Source of the DNA: Perna viridis
Lineage: Eukaryota
Reading direction: 5' to 3'
Assembly (NCBI GenBank): GCA_037379345.1
Contig: CM074517.1
Coordinates: 31,310,001-31,374,000 of the forward strand
DNA: 64,000 nt
Both the position numbers and the translations under genes were made by a program. The notes beneath the pieces were generated by a model. The model searched no databases, was not told the DNA's origin, and worked only from the letters and a program-made list of their open reading frames with translations. This document shows, piece by piece, positions 17,301-20,300 of the stretch (position 1 is its first letter; each line of letters opens with the position of its first letter).

Positions 17301-20300
17301 ATTTCTTCCGTTCATTTAACCCCATGCAGGTCCGGGTGTCCAAAGAATAGGCCTGCAGCAGTGCTAAGCTTGTCGTAAAAGGCGACTAAATAGTGCTCAG
17401 AAACCTAGCCAAGGGCTAGGCGCTGTGCCCACAGAGCAACTGGGATGTGTGCCCCAGGTGGTGGAATGGGGTACCCCTGGTGTGTTACATCCTGGGGTTG
17501 TCAGGCTATAATACGGACAACCCGACAGCAAACCATAGTGGTGCACCGTGTTGGGAAAGATGCCATGTTCCTCGCATGTTAAAGAACCCTGCTGTGGTAT
17601 TCGATAGTAGGAACCTTTGCACTCAGCCACAGGAGGCTAAATTCATTGACCCTACCCATCCCTCCCTTTTTCTAGTGGCAATCAAAATTTATCGACCCTA
17701 TTTTGCCTGTGTTCCATCCCTTTTTTCATCATTCCATGTTCATTTTAACATCCCTTTCATGTTCATCGCCTGAATATAGCTGAAATATTGCTGCTCGGGC
17801 GTTAAACCCCAACAATCAATCAATCAATCCATTCATTTAATTTCTGCTTTCATATATTACTGCCAAATTTGAAAGATATATGAACATGTATGGGATAGGA
17901 TATTACTAAACTTACATGTAGTAAATATAAAACTTAGCAACATATTTTAACAAAGTAGACTTCGATTTAAATCAGAGAGTGCTATCCCAATTTGTTCTTT
18001 TATATGTCGGAGGCACTATTTTTTTTCCCAAAACCATTCTCTCAAAAATTTGAACACCAAATAACTTCATCTACATTTTCAGGTACAATGGACATTTTGT
18101 CAATCAGTAAAAATAATGAAATAATGCAGACTTTTAAATCTGAAATATTCATTACAAACCTTCCATTTCTACATCCTCCTCATTTTCTCCTTCCTCCTCC
18201 TCCAAATGGATATCCGGCTGTTCTACACGAATGATAGACTTATTCAACAACCTGAATGCTTCCTTTACATGCTTTGGTTGAACCTAAAAACACAAGTTTT
18301 TATCAGCAGTTGTTTTTTCTCCCTTAGCAACATAATTCATATATTAAGCATGCCAAACATACTTCAATTGAAAATGATAAGGTAACTTGAAAAAATTTAA
18401 AACCTACTTTTGAAAAGACTTGAGAAATAATAAACTTATTACTTAATATTATTGATAGGGCAGATAGATGTCTCAGTATTCACTAACATACAGTGGAAGA
18501 TGGGAAACAACTCAACTATTTCTAGGAGTAATTTATCCAATCTCTCTCATATTTGCGCAGTGATTAGTCACCATTGTTCATCTACCAGGGTCAAATCATG
18601 TTTGTAGCAAGTGTTTAAAAAGTTTACTTCAAAGAAGTGCAAGTGAAAAAAAATAATGGTCAACTTAAACACATAGACCACAATAAACTAACAGCCCCCT
18701 TTATTAAACACATAGACCACAATATTGATTAAACAAACGGCCCCCTTTATTAAACACATAGACCACAATATTGATTAAACAAATGGCCCCCTTTACAAGG
18801 AGTTGAGTACCACCTACTGGGTTTAAAACCTGTGTTAAGTAGCCTTCCAAAAGAGAGCAAGATCATGGTCACATAAAACAGGTCTTTATATAAAATATAA
18901 TTATTATATAATTTTACTACAAAGGGATATTTTGTCAGTCTTCTAAGACAATTTATTGCTGAATATAGGCGGTCACTAAGACGGTTTCACTGTAACTTTA
19001 ATCTTGATCTTTGACAATTAACAAGGTTTAAATTTACAAAATCTGAACAAAGCTTGATCAGAATCAAGTGAAGAAAGTTGATTCCAGAGTGCTAAAAAAA
19101 CAGAAGGATTAACAGAATCAAATGAAGAACAGTAACTCTACTATCACTTAGCAACTTCTCAAACAAAGGAAAAATTCACTTCATTACTTAACATTATGCA
19201 AAGGGCAAATATATGTCTCAGTATTCACTAACATACAGTGGAAGAAGGGAGACCACTCAACTATTTCTAGGAGTAATCTATCCAATCTCCCTCATATTTG
19301 CGCAGTGATTAGTCATCATTGATCATCAAAACAAGATATTAAAGTTCTCTTTTTCCTTAAATTTCAAAACTTTTTTTGACTGTTAATGGTAAATTTACAT
19401 CCCTAATATAGAGCTACAACAACTTAATTAACTACAGACACTTAGTGATCTCTTTGTTAAACTTGGAACTCAATATTTCAAAACATATCTGAATTTAAAG
19501 CCATAATAAACTATTTTAGTCAGACCAAAAAAAAAATCGAGACTTGATTACCTCATCTTGACAGTGTAACCTTGCCATGCCTTCTGACAATCTGATCATA
19601 CTTTCCAACTGTCGTACAGTGATCCTCCATGATGACTTGGCTGCCCCTGTACCGTCACGTTGACGTAGACGTTTATATTCTTCTATCATATACTCCTGGG
19701 CATCTTTACTGATCTGTGGTGATAACAATCCTGCTTGTAAGCATCGACTAAATTTCTAGTGTATGAAGTTTTTTTCTAATTATACCAAAAGAATTTGTAT
19801 TAAAACATACTGAACATTAAAAAAAATGTACTTGAGATTCTTTTTCAAATTTTTGACAAATAAAATGTCAGTAAAACAAAGCAAATCCATTTCAGTTAGA
19901 TAGAATCAGCTTTCCAAAATTAGTGAAACAAGTCTTGAACTTATACGTCCATCTCAAATCAATTTGTCACAATACAAATTATCGTACTTTATGCATTACC
20001 TTTGGTTTGAACTGTCTAGCAAACATAATGTATCTAGTTATATCTTCTACGGAGTAGACTCTCTCCACTGACTCGTCAACTCTACTGTGTAAGTCTACTA
20101 TTCTCCTGGCTATAGCATAATCCGTTACCTGCAATACAATAAGTAAAGCTTAAAAATATGTCAATTTGTACCCATAATCCATAACATTGAAATCTTTTGA
20201 TACGTCTCTGGAACTATTTAGCTAGCACCTGTTTTTTCACAAAAGATTGTTGTAAGAGAAAAATCAATTATGTCACAAGTTTGTTTTCATTATTTTATGG

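What the first reader, a model, noticed from the sequence alone, without database searches (positions are those of the whole stretch)
19213..19326. Unannotated box C/D guide RNA with antisense element to the 5' end of U4 snRNA
Seen on the MCM6 sense strand: terminal stem, N, ATGATGA ... CTGA in canonical kink-turn geometry. Directly after box C comes CTAAT-CACTGCGCAAA-T-ATGA (D'-like). The internal hairpin AGATTACTC-CTA-GAAA-TAG-TT-GAGTGGTCT has a compensatory G-C to A-T change in the second copy (AAATTACTC/GAGTTGTTT), and the guide is identical in both copies. Established: vertebrate U4 begins AGCUUUGCGCAGUGG, so the guide is an 11-nt perfect complement to nt 4-14 (U4/U6 stem II). Vertebrate mgU12-22/mgU4-8 (SCARNA17/U91) methylates U4 C8. 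Inference: an invertebrate analogue or homologue. The D+5 rule with ATGA would select G7 rather than C8, which would be a different site. The D-adjacent element (TGTATGTTAGTGAATA) has no target I can assign.
Basis: partly seen in the sequence, partly recalled or inferred. Interest (0 to 1): 0.72.

Follow-up and report, generated by a model that had tools for sequence, protein, structure and literature searches.

The report
Invertebrate guide RNA for U4 methylation
An intron of this animal's MCM6 gene carries two copies of a likely small guide-RNA gene that matches the front end of the animal's own U4 splicing RNA; the same layout recurs in an ant and in other animal DNA, and it is predicted to place a methyl mark one base away from the mark known in humans.

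Summary
On the minus strand, in a read-confirmed MCM6 intron, lie two copies of a 102-nt box C/D element. Its 11-nt guide pairs perfectly with nt 4-14 of this genome's U4. These are the only two copies found in 723 Mb. A metagenome pattern scan found the same anatomy in four other sequence groups, three with identified intron hosts: U2SURP, KIF23 and an Atta ant gene. All 9 sequences put one more A before D' than the vertebrate U91/mgU4-8 model (Rfam RF00283). The D+5 rule therefore selects U4 G7, not C8. Gm7 is absent from the human U4 list I read. The element scores 20.6 bits against RF00283 (cut-off 40), so it works like mgU4-8 but does not file as a member. Copy 2 has a damaged box C. The hairpin 'compensation' is not significant. 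The D-side element has no target. Expression and methylation are not shown. Verdict: a real, modestly novel variant of a known guide type. Interest 0.42.

The parts
19213..19326 (-). Copy 1: box C/D guide RNA gene with short terminal stem (intact copy)
   Evidence: model R1 73.4 bits (a training sequence)
19313..19319 (-). Box C (ATGATGA), canonical
19297..19307 (-). D' antisense element, 11 nt, perfect complement of U4 nt 4-14; the T at 19308 can add a G.U pair with U4 G15
19292..19295 (-). Box D' (ATGA); the fifth base upstream pairs with U4 G7
   Evidence: same register in 9 of 9 family sequences
19240..19291 (-). 52-nt internal hairpin between D' and C'
   Evidence: -21.9 kcal/mol; insert z -2.95 against 200 shuffles
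19256..19261 (-). GTTGAG with a 2-nt bulge in the apical hairpin; candidate protein-binding or Cajal-body signal (inferred)
   Evidence: G-T-(T/A)-G-A-G with the same predicted bulge in 5 of 8 family sequences
19232..19238 (-). Degenerate box C' candidate (CTGTATG), 17 nt before box D; position 6 can pair with position 1 of D'
   Evidence: one of 3 candidates in this copy, chosen because homologues have theirs 15-17 nt before D
19218..19221 (-). Box D (CTGA), canonical; no target for the sequence before it
18465..18586 (-). Copy 2: tandem duplicate in the same intron; identical guide (18562-18552), D' (18550-18547) and D (18476-18473); box C changed to ATGGTGA (18574-18568); weaker hairpin, stronger outer stem
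18284..19551 (-). Host intron of MCM6 (1268 nt, GT..AG)
   Evidence: splice joint in 12, 5 and 14 reads of three runs and in one contig

Best explanation
Copy 1 is likely an intron-encoded box C/D guide RNA; its 11-base antisense element matches U4 snRNA nt 4-14, and it is predicted to direct fibrillarin to 2'-O-methylate U4 G7. Shown: the boxes, the sense intronic position, the perfect match to this genome's U4, the low copy number, and the same layout and register in other animals. Inferred from established C/D biology: the RNA is released from the spliced MCM6 intron and trimmed to about 105-110 nt; boxes C and D form a kink-turn that binds 15.5K, NOP56/58 and fibrillarin; the guide pairs with the U4 strand that later forms U4/U6 stem II; the base paired five positions upstream of D' is methylated. 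Only the D' guide is active. The long hairpin is a spacer that may carry a localisation signal. Copy 2 is probably an impaired duplicate. The family has moved between host genes and is more likely than not (about 60%) the invertebrate relative of vertebrate U91/mgU4-8, with the 11-bp duplex slid by one base (U4 4-14 instead of 5-15).
For: Target: 38 U4 matches in the genome; 12 of 12 fetched loci start with the target. The guide region gives -19.4 kcal/mol on U4, against -13.8 on the best rRNA site, -13.0 on U6 and -6.4 on U5; the window scan that also included U2 found only the U4 match. Selection: the two copies agree at 96 of 102 core positions, against 31 of 40 just 3' (Fisher p 0.012) and 10 of 20 just 5'. 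Family: of 120 pattern loci, 13 have RTGATGA 3-6 nt before the guide, and 7 of these have the G7 register. They reduce to four groups: L028/L029 (U2SURP host), L047 with two copies in one KIF23 intron, L052/L124 (exon 100% identical to Atta ant proteins), and L115/L038. Six of the 7 loci have CTGA 65-86 nt after D'; L038 breaks off. Five of the 6 distinct homologous copies close with a terminal stem of -6.4 to -12.6 kcal/mol; L052 does not. Our insert aligns to theirs at only z -0.9 to 2.8, yet guide and register are invariant. Register: L115 and L038 have canonical CTGA as D'. In 7 of 9 sequences C' position 6 complements D' position 1 (T-A here, A-T in five homologues); the RF00283 consensus has G-C. 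In yeast, a U inserted between guide and D' moved the site by one base, and the +6 shift needed a C at the last guide position (PMC5389607 section 11); here that base is T or A in 9 of 9. No competing U4 guide was found in this genome: box C plus guide occurs once, and 8 C8-register matches (control 4) have no box C within 250 nt upstream.
Against: No direct evidence of expression: 0 reads over either copy in three cDNA libraries, 19-25% of each read (these hardly cover the intron at all). No methylation data. D' is non-canonical (ATGA) and C' lacks the GA pair; such motifs in yeast can methylate at +6 or at two sites (PMC5389607 section 8). Copy 1 has a weak terminal stem and lies 934 nt from the 3' splice site. 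RNAalifold finds 0 consensus pairs on the MAFFT alignment; the insert folds better than shuffles (z below -2) in 5 of 8 sequences only. The homologues were selected by a pattern containing box C, the guide and a D'-like box, so those parts are conserved by construction; the register (1 or 2 bases allowed), hairpin, C' and box D were free. The U4 of the other animals was not seen. U1, U11, U12, U4atac, U6atac and tRNAs were not tested as targets.
Confidence: 0.6

Rival explanations
1. The same guide RNA methylates U4 C8 (as in vertebrates), or both G7 and C8, because its non-canonical C'/D' motif shifts fibrillarin to the sixth position.
For: Cm8 is the known human mark (PMC7960923 passage). 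Yeast snR13 and U24 C'/D' motifs direct +6 methylation, and U18 and snR48 modify two sites. D' lacks the 5' C in 7 of 9 sequences.
Against: L115 and L038 have a canonical CTGA in the G7 register. The last guide base is never C, the condition tied to the shift. The base that would pair with G15 in the vertebrate register is A or T, never C, in 9 of 9, so the whole duplex is slid.
Confidence: 0.17
2. The RNA pairs with U4 without methylating it: it acts as a chaperone or placeholder for U6 on the stem II strand, or as a sink for U6-methylation guides, as proposed for human mgU4-8.
For: The guide shares 8 bases with U6 nt 63-70. A 'regulatory RNP' role was proposed for mgU4-8 on that basis (PMC5612246 passages). 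More than 80% of yeast C'/D' motifs are reported non-functional for protein binding (PMC8413462 abstract).
Against: The likeness to U6 follows from both pairing with U4. A fixed one-base distance between duplex and D' in 9 of 9 sequences, and C'/D' complementarity in 7 of 9, are what site selection requires and a chaperone would not need.
Confidence: 0.1
3. The family is real, but both copies in this genome are silent or decaying remnants.
For: Copy 2 has a damaged box C and a weaker hairpin (-11.4 against -21.9). Copy 1 has a weak stem. No reads cover either copy.
Against: The core is better kept than the flanks (96 of 102 against 31 of 40). No other box-C-plus-guide locus exists in the assembly. 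In one assembled run the contigs holding the copies have depth 26.6 and 32.1, against 5.1 for the intron between and 3.7 for the spliced contig (contig depth is a poor measure, suggestive only).
Confidence: 0.08
4. A chance arrangement of motifs in a duplicated intron segment, a U6-derived fragment, or a guide for another RNA.
For: 20.5% of shuffled windows give some C/D-plus-guide hit. No Rfam match at the cut-off. Several possible target RNAs were not tested.
Against: The same anatomy occurs in introns of three other host genes in other animals. Similarity to U6 is limited to 8 bases, E 0.12. U4 is the best target by more than 5 kcal/mol.
Confidence: 0.05

Closest known systems
Vertebrate mgU4-8 / U91, the 3' domain of scaRNA17 (mgU12-22/U4-8); Rfam RF00283, labelled SCARNA18 (that RF00283 is U91 is recalled; its consensus, carries the U4 guide)
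   Same: Guide directly after box C and used with D'; 10 shared guide bases; 17 nt between box C and D' in both; same target strand of U4; the GCC/GGC terminal stem of the Rfam consensus recurs in 4 of the 6 distinct homologous copies but not in our copies.
   Different: One more A before D' and no C at the 5' end of the guide, so the duplex covers U4 4-14 and selects G7 (model: 5-15, C8). 102 nt with a 52-nt hairpin, against 83 model positions with a 4-bp hairpin. D' ATGA instead of CTGA. A stand-alone intronic unit, not a fragment processed from a two-domain RNA. Score 20.6 bits against a cut-off of 40.
Drosophila box C/D scaRNAs (mgU4-65, mgU2-25/28/41, mgU5-38/42)
   Same: Invertebrate box C/D guides for spliceosomal snRNAs; MeU2-C28 is intron-encoded.
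   Different: The only U4 guide named in the passages read is mgU4-65 (PMC3884663). Their signal cgaGUUAnUg (PMC4041459 passage) is matched at its core only by a stretch between C' and D that most homologues lack.
Vertebrate intronic C/D scaRNAs with a long apical hairpin (U90, mgU2-47)
   Same: Intronic, one long hairpin between the box pairs, snRNA target.
   Different: Their hairpins end in GU-repeat wobble stems; ours has no GU repeat.

Membership tests
Box C/D guide RNA (class) | Box C RUGAUGA near the 5' end and box D CUGA near the 3' end | tested here: met
   Copy 1 canonical; copy 2 box C is ATGGTGA, not met for that copy
Box C/D guide RNA (class) | Antisense element of at least 10 nt ending next to D or D' | tested here: met
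   11 Watson-Crick pairs plus 1 G.U with U4 4-15, one unpaired base before D'
Box C/D guide RNA (class) | Terminal stem flanking the kink-turn | tested here: inconclusive
   Copy 1 -0.8 kcal/mol, copy 2 -10.1; 5 of 6 homologous copies -6.4 to -12.6
Box C/D guide RNA (class) | Sense-strand intronic position or own promoter | tested here: met
   Splice joint in 3 of 3 raw-read runs; host MCM6
Box C/D guide RNA (class) | Accumulates as a stable small RNA | tested here: inconclusive
   0 reads in three cDNA libraries that barely cover the intron; raised contig depth in one assembly
Box C/D guide RNA (class) | Binds 15.5K/NOP56/NOP58/fibrillarin and methylates its target | not testable with these tools
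   Needs immunoprecipitation and Nm mapping
RF00283 (U91 / mgU4-8) | Score at or above the gathering cut-off of 40 bits | tested here: not met
   20.6 and 15.0 bits; four homologous copies 17.9-19.6
RF00283 (U91 / mgU4-8) | U4-complementary guide between box C and D' | tested here: met
RF00283 (U91 / mgU4-8) | D'+5 position opposite U4 C8 | tested here: not met
   Opposite G7; the consensus has one base fewer
scaRNA17 (mgU12-22/U4-8 composite) | Upstream mgU12-22 domain in the same transcript | tested here: not met
   No Rfam match in 18400-19400 beyond the two weak RF00283 hits and three unrelated weak hits; none at cut-off in the window. RF00492 gave 0 matches in the genome, but that search had no positive control
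scaRNA (Cajal-body localised) | Cajal-body signal (GU/UG wobble stem, Drosophila cgaGUUAnUg, or CAB box in a loop) | tested here: inconclusive
   No GU repeat; GUUAnUG core present but in 1 of 7 homologous sequences only; a bulged GU(U/A)GAG is shared by 5 of 8
scaRNA (Cajal-body localised) | Binds WDR79 and concentrates in Cajal bodies | not testable with these tools
   Needs FISH or immunoprecipitation

The most novel reading that the evidence does not exclude
A widespread, unannotated invertebrate guide family installs a U4 modification not on record (Gm7, in U4/U6 stem II). It shares an ancestor with vertebrate U91/mgU4-8, one lineage having slid its guide by a single base, so that vertebrates mark C8 and these animals mark G7. 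The bulged GU(U/A)GAG in its hairpin would be the Cajal-body signal of non-fly invertebrate C/D scaRNAs.
Probability: 0.3. Interest if true: 0.6.

Novelty: new variant of a known kind. Interest (0 to 1): 0.42.

Why it matters
The snRNA modification maps I could read come from human, fly and Arabidopsis, and the Arabidopsis map excludes the first 20 bases. A guide kept across distant animals with a one-base offset from the human guide gives a sharp and cheap prediction (Gm7 present, Cm8 absent in these animals). If true it would be a clean natural case of a methylation site moving by guide slippage. It would suggest that stiffening this part of U4/U6 stem II matters more than the exact base. 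It also supplies a family that Rfam misses. It does not change the mechanism of C/D guides, so the interest is for specialists.

Tried and rejected
Rfam at cut-off: 0 matches in the window; at E up to 1 over the whole window, 3 unrelated weak hits and not this element. RF00283 across the genome: 3 weak hits, none with the full guide; the best (30.5 bits) has no U4 guide and was rejected. RF00492: 0 matches, no positive control. Sequencing-run search: no RNA holder listed on record, no evidence either way. Read laying over the wider MCM6 gene could not be completed, so the contig-depth contrast has no control from other introns or a DNA run. The contig ends at 19216 and 18471 coincide with box D but also with a 33-base stretch shared by both copies, so they were not taken as RNA ends. 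Viral contigs: 0 matches. Five loci with box C and the C8 register (L063, L073, L075, L077, L112) were dropped as bacterial by context: Pfam glycosyltransferase and pilin for L063, long ORFs for L077, GC content and reading frame by eye for the rest; none matched model R1 beyond position 51 (R1 is built from G7-type sequences). L088 was left out as ambiguous. The lineage of L028/L029 and L047 could not be fixed (no named hit; best named hit Branchiostoma, 58%). The structure-free model R1 could not be run on the genome, so diverged paralogues are tested only by exact patterns and BLAST. A U6 pseudogene origin was rejected. A target for the D-side element was rejected: best runs are 7-10 pairs with 1-4 G.U in seven RNAs. 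One search used a structure one column out of register and was replaced. Literature: 10 searches; I saw no invertebrate U4 5' guide or U4 Gm7 in their listings or in the passages read; the single 'Gm7' hit was Gm75 of 5.8S. Guide-motif searches in three supplements found nothing.

Full report
Observation. On the minus strand the window reads box C (19319-19313), five bases, CACTGCGCAAA (19307-19297), T, ATGA, a 70-base insert and box D (19221-19218). The gene around it is MCM6. Reads from 3 of 3 raw-read runs and one contig join the flanking exons across a 1268-base intron, so the element is intronic and sense. A second copy lies 745 bases downstream in the same intron. The copies agree at 96 of 102 core bases, against 31 of 40 just 3', 10 of 20 just 5' and 21 of 60 further out (Fisher p 0.012 for core against the near 3' flank). 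A DNA search of the 723-Mb assembly returns only these two. Copy 1's terminal stem is marginal. Copy 2's box C is ATGGTGA. The single compensatory change comes with two broken pairs and is not significant (237 of 500 shuffles).

Chance. A scan for box C, box D and a 10-base perfect complement to this genome's U2, U4, U5, U6, 18S, 5.8S or 28S next to a D or D' box finds 1 hit in the window, this one. In 200 shuffles 2.5% give an snRNA hit and 20.5% any hit. Local evidence alone is thus moderate.

Target. The genome holds 38 U4 matches; 12 were fetched and 12 of 12 begin with the target. The guide pairs with U4 nt 4-14, with a G.U at G15 and a mismatch at C3; the fifth base upstream of D' pairs with G7. 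Duplex energies are -19.4 kcal/mol on U4, -13.8 on rRNA, -13.0 on U6 and -6.4 on U5. U1, U11, U12, U4atac, U6atac and tRNAs were not fetched. The 16 bases before box D have no run better than 7-10 pairs with G.U in seven RNAs and differ among homologues, so only the D' guide is likely active. This U4 strand forms stem II with the genome's U6 (-25.4 kcal/mol).

Family. A translation filter removed 91 as recA-like. Thirteen of the 120 have RTGATGA 3-6 bases before the guide: 7 in the G7 register, 5 in the C8 register, 1 other. The five C8 cases look bacterial (see Tried and rejected). The seven form four groups, since L124 repeats L052, L028 and L029 are orthologous, and L038 resembles L115. Hosts are U2SURP, KIF23 with two copies in one intron, and a dsRNA-binding gene whose exon is 100% identical to Atta cephalotes and Atta colombica proteins; L115 is too short to tell. 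Each complete copy has box C, 4-5 bases, the same 11-base guide, one A or T, a D'-like box, a 65-86 base insert and CTGA. Our insert aligns to theirs at z of at most 2.8, so the fixed register survives near-complete turnover of the rest. The insert folds better than shuffles (z below -2) in 5 of 8, but RNAalifold on the MAFFT alignment finds no consensus pair. A C'-like 7-mer sits 15-17 bases before D in 7 of 8 complete copies, and its sixth base complements the first base of D' (T-A here, A-T in five others); L115 has none and L038 mismatches. In our copies this was one of three candidates. A G-T-(T/A)-G-A-G with the same 2-base bulge is predicted in 5 of 8 hairpins. Whether the window's organism is a mollusc was not tested.

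Paralogues. Box C followed within 2-10 bases by the guide occurs once in the genome. Eight matches in the C8 register (control 4) have no box C within 250 bases upstream. RF00283 finds no guide-bearing locus. This locus appears to be the species' only guide for the U4 5' end, within the limits of exact patterns.

Expression. Three cDNA libraries (19-25% read) give 0 reads on either copy and almost none in the intron, which is uninformative for a short non-polyadenylated RNA. In one assembled run the contigs with the copies have depth 26.6 and 32.1, the intron between 5.1 and the spliced contig 3.7, and nothing lies 3' of copy 2's box D. This fits a protected RNA, but contigs cannot show level or ends.

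Mechanism. Shown: anatomy, position, complementarity, conservation. Inferred: release from the intron, assembly with the four core proteins on the C/D kink-turn, pairing with U4 before U6 occupies stem II, and methylation five bases from D' (rule as stated in PMC6770171, passages). Non-canonical C'/D' motifs can shift or double the site (PMC5389607, abstract and sections 8 and 11). The same paper shows that a U inserted before D' moves the site by one base and ties the +6 shift to a C at the last guide position, which none of the 9 sequences has. I put G7 at 0.6, C8 or both at 0.17, a non-methylating role at 0.10, silent copies at 0.08 and chance or another target at 0.05.

Comparison. Rfam gives no match at cut-off and a weak RF00283 hit (20.6 bits, cut-off 40). 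Its consensus pairs with U4 5-15 and selects C8. Human U4 carries Am1, Gm2, Cm8 and Am65, with Cm8 assigned to scaRNA17 (PMC7960923, passages), from which mgU4-8 is processed (PMC5612246, passages). The fly passages name only mgU4-65 for U4 (PMC3884663). PMC13228274 (passages and section 7) mentions U4 sites only in a figure I could not see. Arabidopsis has A67 only, ends excluded (PMC8053127, passages). PMC4041459 (passages) gave the localisation signals; PMC8413462 was seen as abstract; PMC13736004, PMC5006418, PMC2377427 and PMC11014333 as term look-ups; supplements of PMC11014333, PMC11880993 and PMC11649923 were searched for the guide motif without a hit. The element works like mgU4-8 but fails two defining tests of RF00283 (score, C8 register), so I do not file it there. 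Homology is about 60% likely: same guide position, 17 bases from box C to D', and a GCC/GGC stem in 4 of 6 homologous copies; against this, any U4 guide must share those 10 bases.

Novelty. Ten literature searches showed no invertebrate guide for the U4 5' end and no U4 Gm7, but the key comparative papers were not held, so an earlier prediction is possible. Verdict: real feature, new variant of a known kind, interest 0.42.

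Noticed in passing
G000:C5:23808233-23844182; C2:52195776-52240417; C12:3605546-3677953; C12:15169066-15266582: U4, U6, U5 and U2 genes lie in long tandem arrays, with periods of about 738, 690, 1450 and 1730 bases; 37, 48, 45 and 46 of the listed matches fall in these arrays (lower bounds).
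   Followed up: no
L088:560-650 (minus strand): Box C, guide, GC, CTGA, a hairpin and CTGA; a G in place of the last A would pair with U4 U4 as G.U and keep the G7 register. It lies antisense to an intron-containing tRNA-ligase gene and scores only 11.7 bits on model R1; ambiguous, not counted.
   Followed up: partly
L047:2421-2534 and 3232-3341: As in the window, two copies sit in one intron (KIF23) and one has a deviant box (D' TTTA).
   Followed up: partly
L038:41-140: The 5' part of a homologue runs without box D into a 697-codon kinesin reading frame; probably a chimeric contig.
   Followed up: no
window 18856-18892: A 37-base stretch is covered in all three raw-read runs by reads whose both ends belong elsewhere, so it is shared with another transcript.
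   Followed up: no
window 18670-18790: A short tandem repeat, about three units of 40-50 bases, between the two copies, seen by eye.
   Followed up: no
window about 14600-15750 and 21400-22170: Several related copies of an interspersed repeat in other MCM6 introns, seen by eye; L139's chance guide match lies in similar sequence.
   Followed up: no
G000:C11:5374838-5395594: The two complete 18S genes found lie on opposite strands about 17 kb apart, and the plus-strand unit is followed by AT-rich sequence rather than another unit within 3.5 kb.
   Followed up: no
metagenome loci L015-L134: A conserved bacterial coding motif (recA-like, label recalled) mimics box C plus this guide and filled 91 of 120 rows; future scans should require the extra A or a purine before TGATGA.
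   Followed up: yes
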